From an uncultured Clostridia bacterium (GTDB lineage: Bacteria; Bacillota; Clostridia; TANB77; CAG-508), in assembly GCA_947623945.1 (NCBI GenBank), contig CANQHU010000001.1, forward strand, positions 15,705 to 79,704: DNA of 64,000 bases, written 5' to 3'. A program made the position numbers and the translations under genes. The notes beneath the pieces were generated by a model. That model did no database searches, was not told where the DNA came from, and saw only the letters and a list, made by a program, of their open reading frames with translations. This document shows positions 36,440 to 56,883 of the stretch, in pieces. Each line of letters starts with the position of its first letter. Positions within the stretch are counted from its first letter, which is position 1.

Positions 36440-37440
36440 CTAAAAATCACCTTCTAAAAACACGCGAAAAATCACCCTCAAAAAATACCCCTTCCAAACG
36501 GGCTAAAAAACAGGCAAAATTGGAAAAATTTTCCAAGGGGACAAAATGGGGACAAAATTGGGCCTTCGGGGACAAAATTTTGTCCCCATCCTAACACGCA
36601 TAAACACTGGGTTTTTTCGATTTTGGCACTTTTGAGGGGACAAAATGGGGGACATTTTAAAAGTCCAACAAAGCTAGGAAATAAGCCACTTTTTGGGATT
36701 TCTTTTCTCTTTTTGCCCCCATTCTCAAAATCTATATATAGAGCGTAAAATAGAAAAGTTAAGTTTTATATAAAGAGTTGTCAAAAATGGGGACAAAATT
36801 GCAAAAATGCCTTTTCGCCCTTTGTTTATGCGGGTTTGCGGTACTTTTCGGGCGGGGACAAAATTCTCGAACATCTGTTTGGGTGAGCCTCGGAGCCCTT
36901 GATTTTCCTAGCCAAAACAGGGGGACAAAATGGGGACAAAATCGGGGACATTTTTGTCCCCTCGGCGAAATTTTGTCCCCGATTTTTCGTACATATGTTT
37001 GGCAAAATGCCGATTCTTGAGACTATACTTAGGTTTATCGGCATTTTTCGTACATATGTTCGTTTTTTTCGTACATATGTTCGTTTTTTCGTACATATGT
37101 TCTGAACATATGTTTGTTTCCAAACATATGTTTGGGGTTGAATTTCCAAAAACAAACATATGTTCGAGATTTTTGGCTTTATTTTTTCCAAATTTTTCCA
37201 ATTTTGAACCGAACAAGTGTTTGTTTTCTCGAACACTTGTTTGGGTGTTTCTTCGTACATATGTTCGAGAGTGTTTGATACCTCTACCTTATCGAACCCT
37301 TTTGTGTTCAATTACTCCGATTCATCGAACTCCATTTGGTATTCATTCTCTCCCACCCATCGAATACTTTGTGTTCAATCACTCTGACGCATCGAACCCC
37401 AAAAACCATTCGATGTCTCCCACTCATCGAACAAAATAAG
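36440..37440. repeat. Iteron field / probable replication origin (three repeat families + AT-rich DUE)
   Basis: About a dozen GGGGACAAAAT copies (36537-36980), including perfect palindromes ggggacaaaattttgtcccc and ggggacatttttgtcccc. AT-rich tctatatatagagcgtaaaatagaaaagttaagttttatataaag at 36730-36776. About ten (C/T)G(T/A)ACATATGTT(C/T)G palindromes (36988-37270). Six CATCGAA(C) copies and a 32-bp direct repeat (37290-37435). Lies directly upstream of the helicase gene. Confidence 0.6.
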
Positions 37441-37544
37441 AACAGATGTTTTCGTCTTGTTTTTCTGTTTTACCTATGATAAGATAGTAGCACGATGACA
37501 TACGAGACGGAAACCAAATTCCGTCATGAAAGAGGTGAAAGCAT

Positions 37545-39152
37545 ATGAAAGAGGGGTTACGAGACCCGTTGTTCCTGCGTGTGCAATTTTTGAATGTACA
37601 TATGAAGGACAAGGGTACGCCAAGTATCTCTGTACGGTTAAATCTAACCAAAGATAACCTGATTTATGTACAAAATCGAAAGGGACGCGTGGAAGTCATT
37701 GGCTACCAAGACCCGGATTCCGGGCTGTTTGTGGCGGAAGAAAAGGGACAGGCTGAGTGCGTGTACCAGCAATTCCGCAAGAAAGCGGTGGCGTATGCAA
37801 ATGAAGAATTAAATCAGTTCCTTTCCCAATTAGAAAGTTTATCGGACGAGGATTATAAGGAACGGGGCTACCGTCCGTATCCGATATTGGCGGCGGCTTT
37901 AAAGCAATGCCTTGTGGATAGACAAGCCTTATATGCCGATTTGCAAAAGCAGGTGAATTTAATTGCGTCGACCAAATTTCCCAAGGTCAATGAATTTGTG
38001 GCATTTTCCAATGATGAGGTCTTATCGTTTCCGGTGACCGCGCGTCTGCCGTATCGCAATCCGCAGACCGTGACCTTATCGGAAGAACAGAAGATGGAAG
38101 TGGAAACCTTTTTATCCGTTTTCTTCGATGATTATAACCGGTATGTCTTTTCATGGTACTTTGGGGCCGTGTTATCCAATATTCCGATTTATGATGACCG
38201 CATCGGCAAAATGGCCATTTTGAGTAGTCACTTGGGTGGCAGTGGAAAGTCAACCTTGGTCACGGCGCTTTGTGACGCCATGTTATCCGGCTTTTGCGAT
38301 ATCCAAGATGATTTTGATTCATTTTTTGTGGTAGGAAATCGGTTTGGCACTTCGACTTTATCCAGCAAGCGGCTGTCTGTCTATTCCGAGGCTTCGTTTT
38401 CCAACGACCCGTTATCGGATGACCACAATTTTACCGGACTCAATGTCTCCTCTTTAAAGTCGATGATAACCGAGGGCTACATTGCGGCGGAAGAAAAGTT
38501 CGGTGACCGGAATATGGAACGCTTATCGGGTTTTCATCTGGTGCTGACAAACTTCCCTCCATTGGTGACCGCAGAAAACCAAGCGATGAACCGGCGAATT
38601 CTTCCGATTATGATGCGTCCCACGCCGATGAGTGAGAAAGCTAAGCAGTTAAAGCTATGGGGACGACAGACCATGGACGCTTACTTACGGGAAAAGGCGG
38701 AGCTCTTTGCCGCTTACTTTGTTTCTGTTTTCCGGGAAAATGAATATGCGTTTTTGGATATAGACTACAACCATCGGGATTATTTGCGGGATATCAAGGA
38801 TTCCGGTGATGATTTAAATGAAGAATTGAAACAAGACAGAAAGAAATTGGACGCCTTGCGGGCCGATGGATTCTTAAAATGGGTGGAAGGTGTGGAAAAG
38901 AAAGACCAGCTAGACTTATCCGTCTTTAAAGCCGATGTCATGGAAATTGCGGCAGGGGGCGCCCGGGACGGCATTTGTGACCATATTCGGATTTCTACCG
39001 AGTTAAACGGCCGTTTCCTTTATGTGGATGCGTCCAAATCCTTCCTGTTACGCTATGGAACGGCGTCCACCAATTTACGCAACCGGTTAAAGGAATATTA
39101 TGGGGAACCGGCCAAGAAATTCCATCTTCGGATGTTTACAATACCATTTTGA
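37545..39152 (+). CDS. Replication protein: SF3 helicase of the D5 / P4-primase C-terminal type (535 aa)
   Basis: ORF track. Walker A LSSHLGGSGKSTLVTAL, preceded by YNRYVFSWYFGAVLSN. Walker B-like GFHLVLTNFPP. Positioned next to the iterons. Confidence 0.65.
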   Translation: MKEGLRDPLFLRVQFLNVHMKDKGTPSISVRLNLTKDNLIYVQNRKGRVEVIGYQDPDSGLFVAEEKGQAECVYQQFRKKAVAYANEELNQFLSQLESLSDEDYKERGYRPYPILAAALKQCLVDRQALYADLQKQVNLIASTKFPKVNEFVAFSNDEVLSFPVTARLPYRNPQTVTLSEEQKMEVETFLSVFFDDYNRYVFSWYFGAVLSNIPIYDDRIGKMAILSSHLGGSGKSTLVTALCDAMLSGFCDIQDDFDSFFVVGNRFGTSTLSSKRLSVYSEASFSNDPLSDDHNFTGLNVSSLKSMITEGYIAAEEKFGDRNMERLSGFHLVLTNFPPLVTAENQAMNRRILPIMMRPTPMSEKAKQLKLWGRQTMDAYLREKAELFAAYFVSVFRENEYAFLDIDYNHRDYLRDIKDSGDDLNEELKQDRKKLDALRADGFLKWVEGVEKKDQLDLSVFKADVMEIAAGGARDGICDHIRISTELNGRFLYVDASKSFLLRYGTASTNLRNRLKEYYGEPAKKFHLRMFTIPF

Positions 39153-39397: not shown

Positions 39398-40612
39398 ATG
39401 AAACATTCGATAAAACACCTTTCACCCTCCTTTTTCTTTCTGCTATTTCACGGAATTTATACGATTATCGTCTGTTTGATTGACGATGGATTTGCCAACC
39501 GGTTTGATGTGGATTCCGTGTGCGCGTTTGGCAGCTATTTAGCCATTTCTTGGATAGCTTATATCATATGTAAGATTGGAAAATATGCGTACCGGGCCAC
39601 TGGAGCCCGTGGCTCGACCTGCTTATTGTTGGGCACCTTCAGTGGTGTTTTCAGTGGATGGCTTCTCTTTTTTACGCATCAGACGATTCCGCTTCTTTTT
39701 GCCTTAACGACACGGCAGCGGGAGATAATGAGCCGGCTTTTATTTGCCACAGGTATTAACTGCTGTATCAATGGGGCGAGCGCCGTGTTGGAATTTGATA
39801 TTATCTTTCACGAGCAAAACAAAAAGGTCGTATGGAGTGATATTCTATACTGGGTATTAGCCATTTCATTGGATATGGTGGTTTACTTATCTCACTTACC
39901 GGTACACTGGCTGATTTATGCCACGGTCATTTCCAATTTAGTGTATACCATTGTGTTACTCATTGGCAGCCCCTTATTACAGGAACCGATTCAGTTCTCT
40001 TTCCTTGCCACCGGCCTGCGTCGGGGCGTCGAGGTTGCCATACAGGATATTCTCGCCGTATGTATCACCGTTTGTTATACGATTGGGGCCAGCCATTTAC
40101 CGGAAAAGCAGTATGCCTTGCATTGTATTGCCTTTGGCATTGTCACGATGGGCGAGGAGCTGGCAGTCAGCTTTGACTTTTATACCTTGCAGCGGCTATC
40201 CCACCGAACACAGAATGTGGTAACATATGCGGAGCGGCATATCAAATGGGCCGGATATCTTTTACTGGGAATCACTTTATTCTTATTGCCTCCCTTTTTG
40301 TGGCTGTATCATGGCGTTGTACCATACGGAGAAGTATTCGGCTGGTGTCTGATTTATATGAGCAGTAATGTGCCATTAGTATTTTACTATTTTTACGACG
40401 CTATTTTAAACAGCTTGTCAGAAACAAAGTATCTCTGGATAAGCTCCGTGATTGGGCTCTTTGTCCGACTGCCGTTATTATATTTGGTATTACACTATCA
40501 TTGGGGCCTACTTGGTATGGGTCTGATTGCTCCCATTGACTTTGCGGCTCGGGTTATCTATTTAAAAGCATATGCCCACCGTGCGGAGCAGCATCTCTTG
40601 ACAAAAAGGTAG
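39398..40612 (+). CDS. Polytopic membrane transporter, MATE/MOP-like (404 aa), paralog of 904-2169
   Basis: ORF track 39368-40612. ATG M11 has SD aaaggaga. LIDDGFANRFDVDSVCAFGSY parallels IIDSSFANHLGLDEICVASAC. Confidence 0.5.
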   Translation: MKHSIKHLSPSFFFLLFHGIYTIIVCLIDDGFANRFDVDSVCAFGSYLAISWIAYIICKIGKYAYRATGARGSTCLLLGTFSGVFSGWLLFFTHQTIPLLFALTTRQREIMSRLLFATGINCCINGASAVLEFDIIFHEQNKKVVWSDILYWVLAISLDMVVYLSHLPVHWLIYATVISNLVYTIVLLIGSPLLQEPIQFSFLATGLRRGVEVAIQDILAVCITVCYTIGASHLPEKQYALHCIAFGIVTMGEELAVSFDFYTLQRLSHRTQNVVTYAERHIKWAGYLLLGITLFLLPPFLWLYHGVVPYGEVFGWCLIYMSSNVPLVFYYFYDAILNSLSETKYLWISSVIGLFVRLPLLYLVLHYHWGLLGMGLIAPIDFAARVIYLKAYAHRAEQHLLTKR

Positions 40613-40701
40613 CATTGTGGTATTATGATGTTGGGTGTAATCCACTTTCTTTCCAGTGGGTTTGATGGGGAAAAGTGCTTTGTGAGGCAAAGCACTTTTT
40701 T
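40598..40701 (+). ncRNA. Promoter - ~69-nt transcript - terminator unit (x1)
   Basis: TTGACA 40598-40603, 17 nt, TGgTATTAT 40618-40626 (overlaps the MATE stop codon). Hairpin CCACT/AGTGG. Terminator AAAGTGCTTTG-tgagg-CAAAGCACTTT 40672-40698 plus T run. Confidence 0.4.
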
Positions 40702-40708
40702 CTTTGTC

Positions 40709-40795: not shown

Positions 40796-40863
40796 TCCCT
40801 AAAAGGAGAAATATCACAAAATGTGAATCTCCCTAAAAGGAGAAATATCACAAAATGTGAATC
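40796..40863 (+). repeat. Perfect 34-bp tandem duplication, each copy with SD-like aaggag, palindrome TCACA-aaa-TGTGA and an ATG-TGA start-stop
   Basis: tccctaaaaggagaaatatcacaaaatgtgaatc occurs twice (40796-40829, 40830-40863). Confidence 0.8.
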
Positions 40864-41151: not shown

Positions 41152-41328
41152 TTGACAATTTTTTCCATATATGGTATTCTATATATATCACAAAAGATAT
41201 TCTATGTTTCACAAATGAATTTCACATTGCTGTACGAAAGAAAGAAGAACTCTATGTTTCACAAATGAATTTCACATTGCTGTACGAAAGAAAGAAGAAC
41301 CGTCTTGTCCCCGCAAGGCGGTTCTTCT
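41152..41328 (+). ncRNA. Promoter - ~140-nt non-coding transcript built from two 50-nt repeats - long hairpin (x2)
   Basis: TTGACA 41152-41157, 17 nt, TGgTATTCT 41172-41180. The hairpin AGAAGAACCGTCTTG-loop-CAAGGCGGTTCTTCT at 41293-41328 has only a weak U tract. Confidence 0.4.
41201..41300 (+). repeat. Perfect 50-bp tandem duplication containing four TTTCACA half-sites
   Basis: tctatgtttcacaaatgaatttcacattgctgtacgaaagaaagaagaac occurs twice. Confidence 0.85.
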
Positions 41329-41329
41329 C

Positions 41330-41358
41330 TTGCGTATTTGTTTCCTTTCTATTATAAT
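41330..41358 (+). promoter_or_regulatory. Promoter TTGCGT-17-TATAAT of the adhesin gene
   Basis: TTGCGT 41330-41335, TATAAT 41353-41358. SD aaaggaga 5 nt before ATG 41396. Confidence 0.5.
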
Positions 41359-47047: not shown

Positions 47048-47056
47048 GGGATGTTC

Positions 47057-47148
47057 TTGACAAAGAAATCAGCCTTTGTTATACTCAAGTTGCGTGAAAT
47101 CTTTGAATATTTGGGAATGGAGCTGGGTATTACCCGGCTCTTTCCTTT
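47057..47148 (+). ncRNA. Promoter - ~57-nt transcript - terminator unit (p1)
   Basis: TTGACA 47057-47062, 17 nt, TATACT 47080-47085. Terminator GAGCTGGGT/ACCCGGCTC 47120-47140. Confidence 0.4.
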
Positions 47149-47152
47149 CGTC

Positions 47153-47300
47153 TTGACAAGAAATGTTTCTTATGATACGATAATCTTACCTTGTAAGTTT
47201 GTTTTTGGACACCTCCAAAACAGATACAGGTGCGGTACTCATTCACGAGACCAACCTATCCTCAAATGCCTTTGCGAAAGCAGGGGCATTTCCCCATTCT
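47153..47300 (+). ncRNA. Promoter - ~110-nt transcript - GNRA-capped hairpin unit (p2), contains CCUCC
   Basis: TTGACA 47153-47158, 17 nt, TGaTACGAT 47173-47181. CCTCC at 47212-47216. An 11-bp stem AATGCCTTTGC-gaaa-GCAGGGGCATT at 47265-47290. Confidence 0.35.
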
Positions 47301-47316
47301 AATTTCTACTATTGTA

Positions 47317-47420
47317 GATACAACGGTATAACCTTATGATATAATAACAATGCATAAATTGTCTTCTTATAAGCATAAATTCCGGAAAAGAGCCTGCTCT
47401 GTCAGGTTCTTTTCTATTTT
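47317..47420 (+). ncRNA. Promoter - ~68-nt transcript - terminator unit (p3)
   Basis: Extended -10 TGaTATAAT 47337-47345 (weak -35 GATACA). Terminator AGAGCCTG/CAGGTTCT 47389-47410 plus T run. Confidence 0.4.
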
Positions 47421-47424
47421 CCCA

Positions 47425-47530
47425 TTGACAAATTCAATTCGTTATGTTATGATTATCATGGAATTTGTATTGACTTTCATGGCATAAGTCAACTTACTGG
47501 AAAAGAGCCTGCTTTGTCAGGCTCTTTTTC
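47425..47530 (+). ncRNA. Promoter - ~70-nt transcript - terminator unit (p4)
   Basis: TTGACA 47425-47430, 17 nt, TATGAT 47448-47453. Hairpin TTGACTT/AAGTCAA. Terminator AAGAGCCTG/CAGGCTCTT 47503-47526 plus T5, near-identical to the p3 terminator. Confidence 0.45.
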
Positions 47531-47543
47531 ATTGACAATTCGG

Positions 47544-47685
47544 TTGACAAGGTTTTCTGTTTTTTTTATAATAAGAGTGTCGAGTGTTACTCTTTTTGTG
47601 TTTGCTTGTTCTACGAGTTAGGACGAGAATAGTGTCTCCTTAAAAGTATCCGAAAATGGACGGTTCTTGCCGTTCATTTTTGGTT
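47544..47685 (+). ncRNA. Promoter - ~105-nt transcript - terminator unit (p5)
   Basis: TTGACA 47544-47549, 17 nt, TATAAT 47567-47572 (full consensus). Terminator ATGGACGG/CCGTTCAT 47656-47677 plus T5. Confidence 0.45.
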
Positions 47686-47701
47686 TTTGTTCACCACCCG
47701 A

Positions 47702-47825
47702 TTGACAGAATTTGTGAACTTATGGTAGAATGAAATTGCCATAGATAGGTTCTCATTTGGACGGTCCAAATGCGTCCTATACCATTCCGAGGCTCCCTAT
47801 CTCATAGGGAGCCTCCTTTTTTTTC
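47702..47825 (+). ncRNA. Promoter - ~88-nt transcript - terminator unit (p6)
   Basis: TTGACA 47702-47707, 18 nt, TGgTAGAAT 47723-47731. A 12-bp terminator GAGGCTCCCTAT/ATAGGGAGCCTC at 47789-47815 plus T8. Confidence 0.45.
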
Positions 47826-47873
47826 GGCTGCGAATACTCGCAGCCTTTTTCTTGGGGCTAAGCCCCATACCCC
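47826..47873 (+). repeat. Two-hairpin module copy 1 (variable stem with TAC loop + TGGGGC..GCCCCA + CCCC)
   Basis: GGCTGCG-aatact-CGCAGCC, ttttt, TGGGGC-taa-GCCCCA, ta, CCCCA. Confidence 0.5.
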
Positions 47874-47957
47874 AATTAATTTTTGAATTCCTTAATTTGC
47901 CATCGGCCGGCTGTTACAGGTCGGCCATTTCCTCCCCTTATTTATTTTTTGTTAGTA

Positions 47958-48085
47958 AGACGAATGGAGCATCAGGCAAGCATAGCTTAAGGTGGATGCC
48001 GGGGCTATGAACAGTTTCCGTTGTAGAGGGTACGCTGAATCCCGGGCCGGGATATTCGACTGGTATCCCTGTTCCATTCGTTTTT
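47958..48085 (+). ncRNA. Candidate ~125-nt structured RNA closed by a 9-bp stem and ending in a U run
   Basis: ACGAATGGA (47960-47968) pairs with TCCATTCGT (48073-48081), followed by TTTT. Internal helices GCATC/GATGC, AAGC/GCTT and GGGATA/TATCCC. CCGGGAT (48047-48053) can alternatively pair with ATCCCGG (48039-48045). No promoter identified. Confidence 0.25.
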
Positions 48086-48103
48086 CTTCTTTGTAAGAGG
48101 GTG

Positions 48104-48132
48104 TTGCTTTCCGCTTTCGATTCTATTATAAT
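48104..48132 (+). promoter_or_regulatory. Promoter TTGCTT-17-TATAAT of 48163-49002
   Basis: TTGCTT 48104-48109, TATAAT 48127-48132. Confidence 0.45.
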
Positions 48133-48162: not shown

Positions 48163-49002
48163 ATGGCCAAAATTAAATTACATTTGCCTCCCATGTATAA
48201 TCGGTGGCATCAGATAAAAAAGGAAAATACGAAATTTGCGCTGTATCAGTATTTGAGCGCATTGACTGATATAATGGATAGAATAAACGGAACTACATCG
48301 GAATTGGTCGGTTACTTGGAAGACCATGCCTTTCCCGATGCTTATGTGCCAGATATTCCGGTGGTAGAGGGTGAGCTATCCAGTCAATCGTCAATTACGA
48401 TTCCGGAGGAATATGAGGAATTGTTGGACGAGCCGGGATTATCCCCTGCTACGGCATTTCTATTAATCATTCAGATAACGATGCGATTATCGGCCCAATA
48501 TGGGACTTCCCTGTTAAAATTAACACGAGTCGTTGAAAAGTTGATTCCTGATTCCGATGAAGAACCAGAGGAAATCATAGCACATCAGCTGCATATTACA
48601 AAGCAGTCAAGGAGTAGGAACGATACAATTTCGCAAAAGGAGCGAAATCAAGTTCAGCAGGACGAGTCGAACGATACTGTTCCGCATGACAAGTCGAACG
48701 CCGTTCCTTCCCGGTCGAACGATACAGTTCGACCTACCGCGTCGAACGATACAGTTCGACCCAACCCGTCGAACGATACAGTTCGACCCAACCCGTCGAA
48801 CGATACAGTTCGACCCAACGCGTCAGAGAAGAAAATGCCTCCAAAGGCGTCCTCTTCGCCTCAGCCGGTCGAGTCTTCACCTACTGAGGAGCCAGTAAAT
48901 GAAGAACTTCTCTCCCGCTTACAAGGATTGGTGGACCGGGGCAAAGACCTTATGGAAGAAACCCCAGTGGAAACCAATCCCCTTTTAAAAGATTTCCTGT
49001 AA
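48163..49002 (+). CDS. Hypothetical protein (279 aa) with SNDTVRP(N/T)(P/A) nonapeptide repeats
   Basis: ORF track. SD aaaggagagagaatctATG. Confidence 0.6.
   Translation: MAKIKLHLPPMYNRWHQIKKENTKFALYQYLSALTDIMDRINGTTSELVGYLEDHAFPDAYVPDIPVVEGELSSQSSITIPEEYEELLDEPGLSPATAFLLIIQITMRLSAQYGTSLLKLTRVVEKLIPDSDEEPEEIIAHQLHITKQSRSRNDTISQKERNQVQQDESNDTVPHDKSNAVPSRSNDTVRPTASNDTVRPNPSNDTVRPNPSNDTVRPNASEKKMPPKASSSPQPVESSPTEEPVNEELLSRLQGLVDRGKDLMEETPVETNPLLKDFL
48666..48821. repeat. 27-bp phased repeats inside the CDS, four of them perfect 20-bp palindromes GTCGAAC-gataca-GTTCGAC
   Basis: Palindromes at 48714-48733, 48741-48760, 48768-48787 and 48795-48814. Degenerate copies at 48666 and 48693. Confidence 0.85.
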
Positions 49003-49015
49003 AGGAGGGCCAATT

Positions 49016-49531
49016 ATGACACACTTCTTTGATATGGACGGGACATTAGCTGTCTATGAACCGGAAATCTTTCAAACGCAACCGTGGTATGAAAATTTAC
49101 CACCTCATTATTTTGCAAATTTACCGCCAATATCTTCGGCTGTCAATTACATCTTATCGTTGTTGGAAATGGACCGACGGTCTATTTATGTGTGTACGAC
49201 CGTGGCCATTTTGGACAACGATAAAGCATTCTATGAGATTACAACGGATAAAATCCGTTGGATACAGATGCATTTAAAAGGCCGGCTTTTGGCTGACCAC
49301 TTTTTGGTAGCACGGTTGCCCCGAGGTGATAATTTGACACAGGCGGGCAGTTATACCAAATCGGCGGTTGCAATGGCACGCTTAGAGCGGCCCTTACAAG
49401 AAACCGATTACCTCTATGATGATTTCAATCCCAATTTAAATGATTGGAGAGACCACGGAGGTACACCCATTAAGGTATTAAATGGAATCAATTCTTATCG
49501 GGACGATATGAATTGCATTTCCTTTTCCTAG
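49016..49531 (+). CDS. HAD-superfamily phosphatase, 5'(3')-deoxyribonucleotidase-like (171 aa)
   Basis: N-terminal DxDxT motif FFDMDGTLAVY. Size and layout resemble NT5C-type enzymes. Confidence 0.55.
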   Translation: MTHFFDMDGTLAVYEPEIFQTQPWYENLPPHYFANLPPISSAVNYILSLLEMDRRSIYVCTTVAILDNDKAFYEITTDKIRWIQMHLKGRLLADHFLVARLPRGDNLTQAGSYTKSAVAMARLERPLQETDYLYDDFNPNLNDWRDHGGTPIKVLNGINSYRDDMNCISFS

Positions 49532-51636: not shown

Positions 51637-51692
51637 TTACCCGATTGTTACACAATCGGGTAAATCTGGGGACACAAGTGTCCCCATACCCC
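51637..51692 (+). repeat. Two-hairpin module copy 2
   Basis: TTACCCGATTGT-tac-ACAATCGGGTAA, atc, TGGGGACAC-aa-GTGTCCCCA, ta, CCCC. Confidence 0.5.
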
Positions 51693-51777
51693 TTATTATT
51701 TCTGATAAAATCAAATTTCTTATCATCATTCATCACGGTCACTCAAACATATTACATATAAAATTAGGAGGTATCTT

Positions 51778-54289: not shown

Positions 54290-56250
54290 TACTGCGACTG
54301 CTGAAGCCATATTCTGATTGGAATATCAATATGCGTATTAGGAATAATCATATTCCTTTTGGAATATCAATATGCGTGTAAGGAATGAAACATCACCATT
54401 CGGTGGTGAATTCGGAATCTTCTTATTCCTGCTGGAAATATTTTATCAACCGCGTTGATATCCTATCAACAGCGTCAATGTAATTGTCCCGCTGCCGCAG
54501 GGAGGAAAAGGGAACCAAAGAGACAAACATTCTCTTTTATTTGCTATGATGGGAGGTCTCTATACAAAAAGGGAATAAAAAGGGACGAAAATTATCTTAT
54601 TTGTACGAAAAGGGAACCAAAGGGACGAAAAGGGACAAAGGATACCAAAAGGGAACCAAAGGGACAAAAAGTGCAATCGAACACCAGTTCCTCTGAACAC
54701 CAGTTCGACCTCAAACAGCGGGCCCGCGGGAACCGAGGAACTCGAATCGAGGAACTCGAATCGAGGAACTCGAATCGAGGAACTCGATATCTTCTGCCTG
54801 AGGCAGAGAAATCTTCTCCATTTCTCGTGAAGAAAAGAAGAATCTTCTCTTTGGAGGAGGAAGTAGATGCATATTCTCTTTGGAAGCAGAGGTAGAAGTA
54901 TTCTCTTTTGCAGGTATTTGGAGTATTCTCTATCTACTCTATTTTATTATGATTCTCAATCTTTGCGGGTATTTGGAGTATTCTCTATTTGTTCTATTTT
55001 CTCTATATATACTTTTTTGCGGGTATTTGGAGTATTCTCTATCCGCTATGTTTTCTTACTATTCTCAATCTTTGCGGGTATTTAAAGTATTCTCTATCCG
55101 CTATGCTTTCTCTATATATACTTTCTTTGCGGTTATTTAGAATATTCTCTATCCGCTACATCTCGCTATATAGCATTTTGTAGCAAGTGTTCAGAAGTCT
55201 TCTATCTGCTCTATTTTTTTATATATACTTTCTTTGCGGGTATTTGAAATATTCTCTATCTTGATAACATATAACATCTTGTAGGTTAGTCATCATCTGT
55301 ATCTCCTCCGGGTTTTGCGGGTGGTAGAAAGACCCTGCAAGGTAGAGACCTTAAGAGGCTAAGACGCTGAGATATCCAGACCTTAAGACTTTGAGACATT
55401 AAGACGGCCAGAGACTGAGACCTTGAGACGGCCAGACTATAAGACCTTGAGACGCCCAAAGGCTGAGACAGCCAGAGGAGGAGACCTTGAGACGCCCAGA
55501 GACCAGCAGGGAGTGAGAGGGAGAAGAGGGGAAGAAGAGAGAGGAGAAATGAGTAAAAAGTACCAAAAAGGGAACCAAAGGGACGAAAAGGGACAAAAAG
55601 GGAGGATAAATAATAGCTATCTCGGGAACCCTTGCAGTTACTGGGTTTTCTACCCTTTTCCGGGGTCTTGTTTGCGGTGATTTGGTACTAATAAAGGAGG
55701 CAAAATGACCAAAAAGGGACGAAAAGGGACAAAAAGGGACGGAAAAGAGATGACAGGTAGGAGGCTTTGGGAAGGAGGGGCAAATAAGTGGGTAATTTTG
55801 CCCTAATTTAGTTGACATAATATTGGAATGTAACCACAAAGGGACAAATAAGGACGAAAAGGGATAAATAGAGAACAAAAGGAGCTATTGCACTTGGCGT
55901 GTGAAGGTAAGTGGGGCTACCGGAGAGGAGAAAAGAGGGACAAAAGAGGATAAAAAGGGAACAAAAGGGATTGAAAGAGAGGGAAAAACCCCTAAAGGGA
56001 CGAAAAGGAGATATTGGTGCCATTTTTGCGGAAAATGCAACATCTGGAGGGGTATATCAGAGGCGAATCGGGGTGGTTTGGTGACTGATGAGGGCGTGTG
56101 TGTAATTTGGGGCGTGTAGAGGATATCGTTGGCGAGCGGGGCGTGTAAACATCAGTGCTGGAGGGTGTGTGAGAGGAGGGGGAAGAGCATAAGGGAAAAT
56201 TGGTGTTTCAACCAATTTCACAACCCTCTTTCTCTTTCGTTTGATGTGTG
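54290..56250. repeat. ~2-kb non-coding island packed with at least seven short-repeat families
   Basis: Families seen: ggaatatcaatatgcgt x2 (54320, 54361). Palindrome TATCAAC-cgc-GTTGATA (54445-54461). AAAGGGA(A/C)(C/G/A)AAA, more than 20 copies in five clusters. tcgaacaccagttc...gaacaccagttcga (54675-54712). gaggaactcgaatc x4 at 14-bp period (54735-54790). gcgggtatttggagtattctctat x6-7 at ~55-bp period (54908-55260). (c)cttgagacg(g/c)cca x~8 (55340-55500). ggggcgtgt x4 (56090-56170). The track ORFs here are low-complexity artefacts. Confidence 0.75.
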
Positions 56251-56641: not shown

Positions 56642-56694
56642 TTTTTCGTTTGCCTACGCAAACGAAAAATTTTGGGGCTTTGCCCCAAACCCCA
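56642..56694 (+). repeat. Two-hairpin module copy 3
   Basis: TTTTTCGTTTGC-ctac-GCAAACGAAAAA, t, TTTGGGGC-ttt-GCCCCAAA, CCCCA. Confidence 0.5.
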
Positions 56695-56787
56695 TTTCAT
56701 TGATGATATGTTTTTCTTTTTTTTTAAAGAGGCGTATCCGAATATACCCCTTAAATACCCCCTAAGTCGTGAAGGAGTCGTAGCTTT

Positions 56788-56838
56788 TCCGAAATTGTAC
56801 CAATTTCGGAGAGGCTGGGGCGTCCCGCCCCAATCCCC
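56788..56838 (+). repeat. Two-hairpin module copy 4
   Basis: TCCGAAATTG-tac-CAATTTCGGA, gaggc, TGGGGCG-tcc-CGCCCCA, at, CCCCA. Confidence 0.5.
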
Positions 56839-56883
56839 AAAACATTTATAAAATAAAAAAAATTTAAAGAAAGGGTGAGTACA

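What the first reader, a model, noticed from the sequence alone, without database searches (positions are those of the whole stretch)
47057..47850. Six consecutive near-consensus promoters, each followed by a 57-110-nt non-coding transcript and a terminator, in 800 bp downstream of the adhesin gene
The -35/-10 pairs are at 47057/47080 (TTGACA-17-TATACT), 47153/47176 (TTGACA-17-TACGAT), 47317/47340 (extended TGaTATAAT), 47425/47448 (TTGACA-17-TATGAT), 47544/47567 (TTGACA-17-TATAAT) and 47702/47726 (TTGACA-18-TAGAAT). Each transcript ends in a hairpin, most with a T run. Units p3 and p4 share a near-identical terminator, which indicates duplication. The only long ORF here (47051-47302) runs through a terminator and two promoters and looks spurious. 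Such a density of strong promoters producing only short RNAs is unusual. Possibilities are an sRNA battery (regulatory, antitoxin-like or anti-defence RNAs) or a polymerase/factor sink.
Basis: partly seen in the sequence, partly recalled or inferred. Interest (0 to 1): 0.65.

Follow-up and report, generated by a model that had tools for sequence, protein, structure and literature searches.

The report
Small-RNA cluster with Cas12a repeat decoy
An 800-base non-coding stretch on a large plasmid-like element from a rabbit-gut bacterium carries a row of strong promoters making short RNAs, and one of these RNAs contains a lone copy of a CRISPR-Cas12a repeat, the hallmark of a known kind of RNA that mobile elements use to disarm CRISPR immunity.

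Summary
The promoter and hairpin pattern is real. Five of the 22 strong sigma-70-type sites on the + strand of the 64-kb window lie within 700 bp. Every predicted RNA folds better than shuffled sequence, and no ORF with a ribosome-binding site is present. Three details need correcting. "P3" is only an extended -10. The "unit 2 terminator" has no T run. The last hairpin belongs to a conserved intergenic module found across the element's relatives.

The main result is that 47301-47319 (+) reads AATTTCTACTATTGTAGAT. This is identical to the 3' handle of type V-A (Cas12a) CRISPR repeats. In bacterial genomes this 19-mer occurs mostly in arrays, one of which I checked lies beside cas12a and cas1. 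In viral contigs it occurs almost always as a single copy. The window has one copy and no cas12a. The copy lies downstream of promoter P2 and is followed by a spacer-like stretch and terminator T3. That is the layout of an RNA anti-CRISPR (Racr/Cracr). No target for the spacer-like stretch was found.

The other four or five RNAs match no known family. One Clostridia genome contig shows the same layout: a Cas12a solitary repeat unit followed by two more promoter-RNA-terminator units.

Verdict: a small-RNA island holding a new member of a known anti-CRISPR RNA class. Transcription is predicted, not measured.

The parts
47057..47085 (+). Promoter P1 (TTGACA-17-TATACT, TG-extended). It lies between the adhesin stop codon (47047) and the first terminator.
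47092..47150 (+). Predicted RNA-1 (about 55-60 nt) ending in hairpin T1 (47119-47141) with a weak U tract. T1 is also the first terminator after the adhesin gene.
   Evidence: z -4.0
47153..47181 (+). Promoter P2 (TTGACA-17-TACGAT, TG-extended); predicted start about 47188.
47188..47300 (+). 5' leader of RNA-2 with three hairpins (47197-47225, 47228-47257, 47264-47291). The last has a GAAA loop and no U tract, so read-through is expected.
47284..47319 (+). Solitary type V-A (Cas12a) CRISPR repeat-like unit. The handle AATTTCTACTATTGTAGAT occupies 47301-47319. It is identical over 19 nt to array repeats beside cas12a, and over 25 nt to the repeat of locus L120. The 5' 11 nt are unlike any array repeat.
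   Evidence: the handle hairpin forms in the MFE and centroid folds of the whole transcript
47320..47343 (+). Spacer-like sequence (ACAACGGTATAACCTTATGATATA) after the handle. No protospacer or cas-promoter target was found.
47337..47345 (+). P3: extended -10 only (TGaTATAAT), lying inside the spacer-like stretch and homologous to the P4 -10 region. Possibly an internal promoter for RNA-3 (about 47352-47420).
   Evidence: not called
47384..47422 (+). Terminator T3 (A tract, GC stem, U tract). It ends the P2 and P3 transcripts, giving RNA-2 a length of about 230 nt.
47425..47453 (+). Promoter P4 (TTGACA-17-TATGAT, TG-extended).
47460..47535 (+). Predicted RNA-4 (about 75 nt), a partial duplicate of RNA-3, with terminator T4 at 47498-47531.
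   Evidence: (z -4.8)
47544..47572 (+). Promoter P5 (TTGACA-17-TATAAT, 12/12).
47579..47692 (+). Predicted RNA-5 (about 110 nt): a long imperfect 5' hairpin plus terminator T5 at 47650-47683.
   Evidence: z -5.9
47702..47731 (+). Promoter P6 (TTGACA-18-TAGAAT, TG-extended).
47738..47824 (+). Predicted RNA-6 (about 87 nt): a 5' hairpin plus terminator T6 at 47789-47815 followed by eight U.
   Evidence: z -9.1 with the next hairpin included
47826..47890 (+). Conserved two-hairpin intergenic module of this element family. It consists of a GC hairpin with a (C/A)TAC loop, a T run, a GGGGC..GCCCC hairpin, AWA-CCCC and an ATTTTTGAA tail. It is not part of unit 6.
40598..40703 (+). A further promoter, short RNA and terminator unit of the same design, upstream of the adhesin gene.
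41152..41335 (+). A further promoter, short RNA (with two exact 50-nt tandem copies) and terminator unit, directly upstream of the adhesin promoter.

Best explanation
The stretch is an island of small non-coding RNA genes, each driven by a host-type (sigma-A/sigma-70) promoter. It sits on a large, probably circular 182-kb plasmid-like element of a gut Firmicute. It lies in an accessory segment (membrane protein plus adhesin) that the element's relatives lack.

The RNA starting at P2 (about 47188) runs through a hairpin that has no U tract. It then carries one copy of the type V-A CRISPR repeat handle (47301-47319), a spacer-like stretch, and terminator T3.

Inferred mechanism: in a host with Cas12a, the nuclease binds the handle and cuts just 5' of it, as it does with its own pre-crRNA. 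Cas12a thereby becomes loaded with a guide that is useless or that acts only as a regulator. This competes with immune crRNAs (Racr type). If the first 9 or more nucleotides of the spacer-like stretch match the host's cas12a promoter, it would also repress cas12a (Cracr type). Either way the element would be protected from Cas12a interference.

The remaining RNAs (1, 3/4, 5, 6, and two more upstream of the adhesin) are independent short RNAs of unknown target. They are most likely further host-manipulating or anti-defence RNAs expressed from strong constitutive promoters.

Shown: the promoter and hairpin anatomy, the absence of coding potential, and the identity and solitariness of the repeat. 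Inferred: transcription, processing by Cas12a, the inhibitory effect, and any role for the other RNAs.
For: Promoter clustering and terminators. Folding z-scores. No ORF with a Shine-Dalgarno sequence.

Repeat identity:
- The exact 19-mer occurs once in the window, against 0.03 expected even when 3 mismatches are allowed.
- The same 19-mer was found in more than 120 genome stretches. Of the 120 stretches retrieved, 80 hold more than one copy, mostly arrays with a 63-66 nt period.
- The L019 array lies beside Cas1 and a 1229-aa protein with Cpf1 REC1, REC2, PI, RuvC and NUC domains.
- The handle lies on the same strand as the promoters.
- tblastn finds no cas12a in the window.

Pattern in mobile elements: of 105 IMG/VR stretches, 102 hold a single copy, typically as promoter, handle, spacer-like stretch, terminator. 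This matches the published definition of viral solitary repeat units. RacrVA1-3 inhibit Cas12a (PMC10651486). CracrVA1 is a single repeat plus spacer-like stretch plus rho-independent terminator, and matures to a 19-nt handle plus 21-nt guide (bioRxiv 10.1101/2024.10.29.618823).

Other support: gut Clostridia carry arrays with this handle (Lachnospiraceae, Christensenella and others). L064, an uncultured Clostridia contig, has the same row design: a V-A solitary repeat unit followed by two more near-consensus promoter, short RNA, terminator units.
Against: - No transcript data are available. The only RNA-labelled run shows flat, low coverage.
- The handle lies 113 nt from the predicted P2 start, whereas many viral units have the promoter immediately upstream.
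- The terminator lies 64 nt after the handle, and an internal promoter sits inside the spacer-like stretch.
- The 5' 11 nt of the 36-nt repeat position do not resemble real repeats.
- No target was found for the spacer-like stretch.
- The host is unknown, so it is unknown whether it has Cas12a.
- Only 64 kb of the 182-kb element was seen, so a cas12a gene or array elsewhere on it cannot be excluded.
- For the other RNAs there is no positive functional evidence. Related elements (49-63% primase identity) lack the cluster. Only one independent analogue of the row design (L064) was found.
Confidence: 0.6

Rival explanations
1. The solitary repeat is a working guide rather than a decoy. The element borrows the host's Cas12a and directs it, through the spacer-like sequence, against a competing mobile element or a host gene.
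For: A Cas12a crRNA needs only a 5' handle plus a spacer, so one repeat followed by 20-24 nt is enough (established knowledge; the mature CracrVA1 in 10.1101/2024.10.29.618823 is of this form). A spacer-like stretch is present at 47320-47343.
Against: No protospacer was found. With PAM TTTV plus 14-16 nt, the 68 hits in IMG/VR and JGI metagenomes extend by 14, 15 or 16 nt in 53, 11 and 4 cases, and none goes further. That is the chance distribution. The window and 225 loci hold no match either. The stretch contains a promoter -10 element, which suggests it is constrained by something other than a target.
Confidence: 0.12
2. The promoters are not separate sRNA genes. They are a series of promoter-plus-attenuator modules that feed the downstream small-gene operon. 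Read-through would be controlled by an antitermination factor or an RNA, as in lambda PR'/6S RNA or in the conjugation operons of Gram-positive plasmids.
For: All units point towards the downstream genes. Relative L007 has one promoter, a roughly 130-nt RNA and a terminator directly upstream of the conserved module and the next gene. The conserved module after T6 could be a regulatory RNA element.
Against: There are five to six terminators in series, two of them with perfect U tracts, followed by the module hairpin. The first downstream gene has its own promoter at 48104-48132. The repeat handle shows that at least one RNA is a product in its own right. The relatives express the same genes without such a cluster.
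Confidence: 0.15
3. The cluster has no function of its own. It would be leftover promoters and terminators of decayed gene cassettes, with a stray CRISPR repeat picked up by recombination, or a sink that titrates RNA polymerase.
For: Related elements lack the cluster. Units 3 and 4 arose by recent duplication. No target was found for any of the RNAs.
Against: Five exact TTGACA boxes with 17-18 bp spacers and mostly TG-extended -10 boxes would not survive decay. The 19-nt handle is intact and in sense orientation, and in viruses this 19-mer is overwhelmingly solitary and promoter-linked. No ORF remnants are visible.
Confidence: 0.08

Closest known systems
Racr: RNA anti-CRISPRs encoded as solitary repeat units, including RacrVA1-3 against Cas12a (Camara-Wilpert et al. 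2023, PMC10651486)
   Same: A single CRISPR-repeat copy without cas genes or further repeats. [quoted passage not shown] It is expected to load the Cas protein with a non-immune RNA.
   Different: Here the repeat lies 113 nt into a structured transcript. It sits on a 182-kb plasmid-like element; the paper found 90 of its 2,193 units on plasmids. It is embedded in a row of other strong-promoter RNA genes. No acr protein gene was recognised nearby. Function is untested.
Cracr: Cas-repressing RNA anti-CRISPRs, e.g. CracrVA1 (Liu et al., bioRxiv 10.1101/2024.10.29.618823)
   Same: One repeat-like unit whose 19-20 nt handle is identical to the host repeat, then a spacer-like sequence, then a rho-independent terminator. 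Found on phages and plasmids of gut Bacillota.
   Different: A Cracr is defined by at least 9 PAM-proximal nucleotides matching the cas promoter or the host CreR. No such match was found for ACAACGGTATAACC in the loci available. It also differs from the CreR-like spacer shared by L076 and the viral loci L183 and L198. The terminator is 64 nt away rather than adjacent.
Multiplexed viral crRNA-like arrays: 'Cracr arrays' and the composite I-C plus V-A units seen here in IMG/VR contigs
   Same: Several anti-CRISPR RNAs are placed side by side on one mobile element.
   Different: Those are several repeats within one transcript (the preprint's section on systematic discovery). Here there are separate promoters and terminators, and only one RNA has a recognisable repeat.
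Tandem sRNA gene clusters such as Listeria LhrC1-5 or Vibrio Qrr1-5 (from my own knowledge)
   Same: A row of short RNA genes, each with its own promoter and terminator.
   Different: Those clusters consist of homologous copies acting on shared targets. Here only RNA-3 and RNA-4 are related.

Membership tests
Racr / solitary repeat unit (PMC10651486) | Sequence matches a known CRISPR repeat | tested here: met
   47301-47319 is identical to the 3' 19 nt of V-A repeats in more than 120 genome stretches. One array (L019) lies beside Cas12a and Cas1. The match is 25 nt contiguous with the L120 repeat.
Racr / solitary repeat unit (PMC10651486) | Solitary: no further full or partial repeats and no cas genes nearby | tested here: met
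   One copy in 64 kb on either strand, even with 3 mismatches allowed. No Cas12a by tblastn. The other 118 kb of the element were not seen.
Racr / solitary repeat unit (PMC10651486) | Intergenic position on a mobile genetic element | tested here: met
   The stretch is non-coding. The contig is 181,759 bp and was assembled twice with a different start point. It carries a primase, adhesins and many small genes of unknown function, and its relatives encode NikA-like proteins, sortases and pilins.
Racr / solitary repeat unit (PMC10651486) | Transcribed from an upstream promoter in the sense orientation | tested here: inconclusive
   P2 (10/12, TG-extended) lies 148 nt upstream on the same strand with no terminator called in between. 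No usable RNA data exist.
Racr / solitary repeat unit (PMC10651486) | Host carries the cognate CRISPR-Cas type | not testable with these tools
   The host is unknown. Gut Clostridia MAGs with V-A arrays using this handle do exist. No spacer in the 120 retrieved genome loci that carry this repeat matches the window.
Racr / solitary repeat unit (PMC10651486) | Binds the Cas protein and inhibits interference | not testable with these tools
   This needs an experiment.
Cracr (10.1101/2024.10.29.618823) | Single repeat-like unit, then a spacer-like sequence, then a rho-independent terminator | tested here: met
   Handle at 47301-47319, spacer-like sequence from 47320, T3 at 47384-47414. The gap to the terminator (64 nt) is longer than in most viral examples.
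Cracr (10.1101/2024.10.29.618823) | At least 9 PAM-proximal nucleotides of the spacer-like sequence match a cas promoter or a host CreR/CreA | tested here: inconclusive
   No TTTV plus 9-nt-or-longer match in the window or 225 loci. One 8-nt hit (L055) lies inside an unrelated ORF. None of the 68 metagenome and viral hits lies next to cas12a. The true host locus is unknown.
CRISPR mini-array / functional guide | A protospacer with a PAM exists in some target | tested here: not met
   Only chance-length matches of 16 nt or less in IMG/VR and JGI metagenomes.
Any Rfam family | Covariance-model score at or above the gathering threshold | tested here: not met
   No match at gathering threshold in the window. 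None at E <= 0.05. Only chance-level hits within the region.
Type I toxin-antitoxin locus | A small hydrophobic-peptide ORF with a ribosome-binding site, overlapped by an antisense RNA | tested here: not met
   No + strand ORF with a Shine-Dalgarno sequence. The two - strand ORFs have a weak SD match, are not hydrophobic, and have only weak (9/12) promoter-like matches nearby.

The most novel reading that the evidence does not exclude
The whole row, including the two units upstream of the adhesin, is a multi-promoter RNA anti-defence island. Each short RNA would be a decoy or mimic for a different host immune RNA or RNA-binding defence protein, with the Cas12a repeat mimic simply being the only one recognisable today. 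The four or five unassigned RNAs would then be founding members of new classes of RNA-based anti-defence factors.
Probability: 0.2. Interest if true: 0.8.

Novelty: new member of a known kind. Interest (0 to 1): 0.55.

Why it matters
RNA anti-CRISPRs were described only in 2023, and few plasmid-borne cases are known. This one sits on a large, otherwise uncharacterised family of 180-250 kb elements from gut Firmicutes. Its handle is the one used by many Cas12a systems, including those of gut Clostridia. The RNA is therefore a candidate natural off-switch for Cas12a and a marker for the element's host range.

The wider value lies in the neighbours. Four or five further strong-promoter RNAs of no known family sit beside a recognisable anti-CRISPR RNA. 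Guilt by association with known anti-defence genes is how most anti-CRISPR proteins were found. These RNAs are short, easy to clone, and can be tested directly.

Tried and rejected
- Rfam, at gathering threshold and by E-value, on the region and the whole window: nothing.
- tRNA and tmRNA search: none.
- Nucleotide similarity of the region to GenBank phages and PLSDB plasmids: none, or chance-level at E <= 10.
- Close relatives for comparative analysis. The downstream 279-aa protein has no detectable homologue other than itself in 5.8 billion clusters. The nearest primase is 63% identical. In relatives L003-L010 the units have no sequence counterpart, so covariation could not be tested for any of the six RNAs.
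- RNA evidence. One RNA-labelled run holds a 98-99% identical strain as low-depth contigs spread evenly over 20 kb, possibly DNA.
- Antisense targets inside the window: the longest complementary runs are 11-13 nt, which is chance level.
- Other CRISPR-type handles recalled from memory (I-B, I-C, I-E, I-F, II-A, III-A, VI): no match above chance. The RNA-2 leader hairpin and the 50-nt repeat upstream of the adhesin are not recurrent in IMG/VR.
- Spacer-like sequence target: none found. Spacers of the retrieved genome loci carrying this repeat do not match the window.
- Anti-CRISPR proteins nearby: Pfam, NCBIfam and PDB sequence searches of the neighbouring small proteins gave nothing. The one exception is a weak 5'(3')-deoxyribonucleotidase-like HAD signal for 49016-49531.
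- Statistical test that solitary repeat units sit in sRNA batteries. The excess of promoter-terminator units near them is mostly the unit's own promoter and terminator. The extra calls in L133 and L215 are in sequences whose promoter-like motifs look Bacteroidetes-type (my reading of the sequence), where a sigma-70 scan is not valid. Only L064 remains as an analogue.
Full report
**Context.** The window is part of a 181,759-bp contig from a rabbit-gut metagenome. It was assembled twice at the same length but with a different start point, so it is probably circular.

- Genes run leftwards up to about 36 kb and rightwards after it. A repeat-rich non-coding stretch at 36.1-37.5 kb lies at the GC-skew minimum.
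- The rightward block starts with a DUF5906 primase (37545-39152). It continues with many small genes of unknown function, a DUF488 protein, RNase HII, an SNF2 helicase and a CAAX protease.
- The leftward block holds BspA-type LRR proteins, a tail-lysozyme-domain protein and an AAA ATPase.
- GenBank phages and PLSDB plasmids hold nothing similar at the DNA level, and only weak distant protein matches (about 21% identity) in two actinobacterial plasmids.
- Primase homologues of 49-63% identity lie on contigs of up to 249 kb. These encode a NikA-like protein next to the primase, followed by many small + strand genes, sortases, pilins, AgI/II adhesins and TnpB elements.

I read this as a family of large plasmid-like elements of gut Firmicutes. 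The strong Shine-Dalgarno sequences and the sortase substrates fit Firmicutes. Homologues of the genes at 48163 and 49016 follow the primase within 1-5 kb in the relatives. The 414-aa membrane protein, the 1,883-aa adhesin and the region under study therefore form an accessory insertion specific to this element.

**The observation.** Five of the six promoters are confirmed at the stated coordinates. All five have an exact TTGACA box and a 17-18 bp spacer, and four have a TG-extended -10.

- The 7-kb surroundings hold 28 promoter-like sites against 14.0 +/- 3.8 in shuffles.
- In the whole window, 5 of the 22 + strand sites scoring at least 10/12 lie within 700 bp.
- P3 is only TGaTATAAT, with GATACA at the -35 position.
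- T1, T5, T6 and the hairpin at 47826-47845 are called as terminators.
- T3 and T4 are near-identical A-tract/U-tract hairpins.
- The hairpin of "unit 2" (47264-47291) has no U tract and is not called.
- Every predicted RNA folds better than its shuffles, with z from -3.4 to -9.1.
- No + strand ORF of at least 8 codons has a Shine-Dalgarno sequence, whereas all eight neighbouring genes I checked do.
- Two more units of the same design lie upstream of the adhesin, at 40598-40703 and 41152-41335.
- Units 3 and 4 align colinearly from promoter to terminator and are tandem duplicates.

**What one of the RNAs is.** Reading the sequence between the unit-2 hairpin and P3, I recognised AATTTCTACTATTGTAGAT (47301-47319, + strand) as the 5' handle of Cas12a crRNAs. 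That was a recollection, so I tested it.

- The 19-mer occurs once in the window on either strand. Only 0.03 occurrences are expected even with three mismatches allowed.
- In one-genome-per-species GTDB contigs it was found in more than 120 stretches. Of the 120 stretches retrieved, 80 hold more than one copy, mostly arrays with a 63-66 nt period.
- In L019 (Lachnospiraceae UBA3762) the array repeat is GCCTAGAGGTTAAAGAAAATTTCTACTATTGTAGAT. It lies next to Cas1 and a 1,229-aa protein carrying all five Cpf1 Pfam domains, on the same strand.
- The genomes with arrays include Lachnospiraceae, Christensenella and other Clostridia, as well as many Bacteroidales.
- In IMG/VR the picture reverses. Of 105 stretches, 102 hold a single copy. 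The usual layout there is promoter, handle, spacer-like sequence, hairpin and T run.
- The window contains no cas12a.
- Beyond the 19 nt, the window copy is identical over 25 nt to the repeat of L120. Its 5' 11 nt resemble no array repeat. The literature describes the same pattern for repeat-like units that keep only the Cas12a-binding handle.
- In a fold of the whole P2-to-T3 transcript, the handle stem-loop UCUAC-UAUU-GUAGA forms in both the MFE and the centroid structure.

**How it most likely works.** Solitary repeat units on viruses and plasmids are RNA anti-CRISPRs. RacrVA1-3 inhibit Moraxella Cas12a (PMC10651486). CracrVA1 is a single repeat plus spacer-like sequence plus rho-independent terminator from a gut phage. 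Cas12a processes it to a 19-nt handle plus a 21-nt guide. It both outcompetes immune crRNAs and directs Cas12a to repress its own promoter (bioRxiv 10.1101/2024.10.29.618823).

The window's unit has the same parts. I therefore propose the following:
- P2 drives an RNA of about 230 nt.
- Host Cas12a cuts it just 5' of 47301 and stays loaded with handle plus ACAACGGUAUAACC...
- Immunity against the element falls as a result.

Whether the unit is a pure decoy (Racr) or also a repressor (Cracr) depends on the host's cas12a promoter, which is unknown. I found no TTTV plus 9-nt-or-longer match in the window or in 225 repeat-bearing loci. The single 8-nt hit lies inside an unrelated ORF. IMG/VR and JGI metagenomes hold only matches of chance length, extending 14, 15 or 16 nt in 53, 11 and 4 cases, and none of them is next to cas12a. 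This also argues against the rival reading that the RNA is a working guide against a competitor.

As a positive control for the approach, L076 (Eubacterium sp.) shows a host CreR-like unit whose spacer-like sequence matches the promoter just downstream, next to a TTTA PAM. Several viral contigs copy that spacer-like sequence.

**The other RNAs.** RNA-1, RNA-3/4, RNA-5 and RNA-6 match nothing.
- No Rfam family.
- No similarity to 1.8 Mb of loci holding the 19-mer, solitary or in arrays, apart from the handle itself.
- No CRISPR handle that I could recall.
- No target within the window.
- No counterpart in related elements, which also lack promoter enrichment.

Two observations keep the "battery" idea alive. 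Viruses do place anti-CRISPR RNAs against different CRISPR types side by side, for example an I-C-like repeat followed by the V-A handle within one transcript. And L064, a contig of an uncultured Clostridia MAG, carries directly after a gene a V-A solitary repeat unit followed by two more near-consensus promoter, short RNA, terminator units. This is the same architecture as here. A broader statistical test was not informative. I give about 0.2 to the reading that the neighbours are further anti-defence RNAs of unknown kinds.

**Rivals.** The promoters could be serial promoter-attenuator modules feeding the downstream operon. In favour, L007 has one such unit before the conserved module. Against this are the five to six terminators in series, the separate promoter of the first downstream gene at 48104-48132, and the repeat handle. 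Decay remnants or a polymerase sink do not explain five intact consensus promoters and an intact, correctly oriented handle.

**Corrections to the anatomy.** Units 2 and 3 are better read as one composite unit: P2, a structured leader, the repeat handle, the spacer-like sequence containing P3, and T3. The hairpin at 47826-47845 together with 47852-47890 belongs to a two-hairpin module. That module recurs on the + strand upstream of genes in this element (four copies in the window) and in all the relatives examined. Its first stem shows compensatory changes, and its GGGG/CCCC/CCCC blocks are invariant. Its function is unknown.

**Novelty and score.** The repeat-bearing RNA is a new member of a known kind (Racr/Cracr), found on a new family of large elements. 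The surrounding row of unrelated strong-promoter RNAs is unusual, and its function is unknown. Everything concerning transcription and function is inferred. Interest 0.55.

Noticed in passing
window 47826-47890, 51640-51712, 56650-56712, 56800-56858; L003 11613-11692 and 17232-17311; L005 11611-11690 and 14699-14778; L007 11890-11972, 15468-15546 and 16297-16378; L009 13986-14064 and 19343-19422: A conserved two-hairpin intergenic module, found on the + strand only and 20-275 nt upstream of genes. It consists of a variable GC stem with a (C/A)TAC loop, a T run, a GGGG(G)C..G(C)CCCC hairpin, A(A/T)A, CCCC, about 5 nt, and ATTTTTGAAA. Eight of the 13 predicted pairs show compensatory changes, and the three G/C blocks are invariant. 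It matches no Rfam family. It could be an RNA-level regulatory or processing signal, or a recognition site on transferred single-stranded DNA.
   Followed up: partly
window 40598-40703 and 41152-41335: Two more near-consensus promoter, short RNA, terminator units flank a 65-aa ORF upstream of the adhesin gene. The second RNA contains two exact 50-nt tandem copies (41201-41300). A 2 x 34-nt exact repeat lies at 40796-40863. The 50-nt unit is absent from IMG/VR.
   Followed up: partly
window 47955-48095: A stretch of about 140 nt between the module and the promoter of gene 48163 folds into a multi-branch structure closed by a 15-bp stem and followed by a U-rich run. The z-score is only -2.2, and there is no Rfam match.
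   Followed up: partly
window 36100-37500 and 54300-56000: Two long non-coding stretches packed with short tandem repeats: periods of 20 and 32 nt in the first, and 14, 20, 55 and 109 nt in the second. The first lies between the divergent gene blocks at the GC-skew minimum and is a candidate replication or transfer origin.
   Followed up: no
L076 57-200 (Eubacterium sp. AM49-13BH); viral loci L183, L198, L208, L214, L223, L233, L143, L221: A host V-A repeat is followed by the spacer-like sequence CGAAGTGATTTG. Its partial target (TTTA-CGAAGTGATG) lies in the promoter about 60 nt downstream, which is a CreR-like autoregulator. Eight viral contigs carry nearly the same spacer-like sequence behind a consensus promoter, making them Cracr-type mimics.
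   Followed up: partly
IMG/VR loci such as L133, L163, L165, L201, L215 (around the V-A handle): Composite units occur in phages whose promoter-like motifs look Bacteroidetes-type to me. They consist of a type I-C-like repeat (GTCAACCCTATCAAGGGTTGTGGATTGAAAC), 14 nt, the V-A handle, a spacer-like sequence and a terminator. One transcript appears to be aimed at two CRISPR types.
   Followed up: partly
L064 3979-4306 (- strand): A contig of an uncultured Clostridia MAG carries three consecutive near-consensus promoter, short RNA, terminator units directly after a gene. The first is a V-A solitary repeat unit. It is the only independent analogue found for the window's layout.
   Followed up: partly
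window 48163-49002 and 49016-49531: The first downstream gene (279 aa) contains four 27-nt repeats encoding SNDTVRPNP. It has no detectable homologue at normal sensitivity, although 30%-identical syntenic genes exist in the relatives. The next gene is a weak 5'(3')-deoxyribonucleotidase-like HAD protein that is conserved at 44-48% identity in the relatives.
   Followed up: partly
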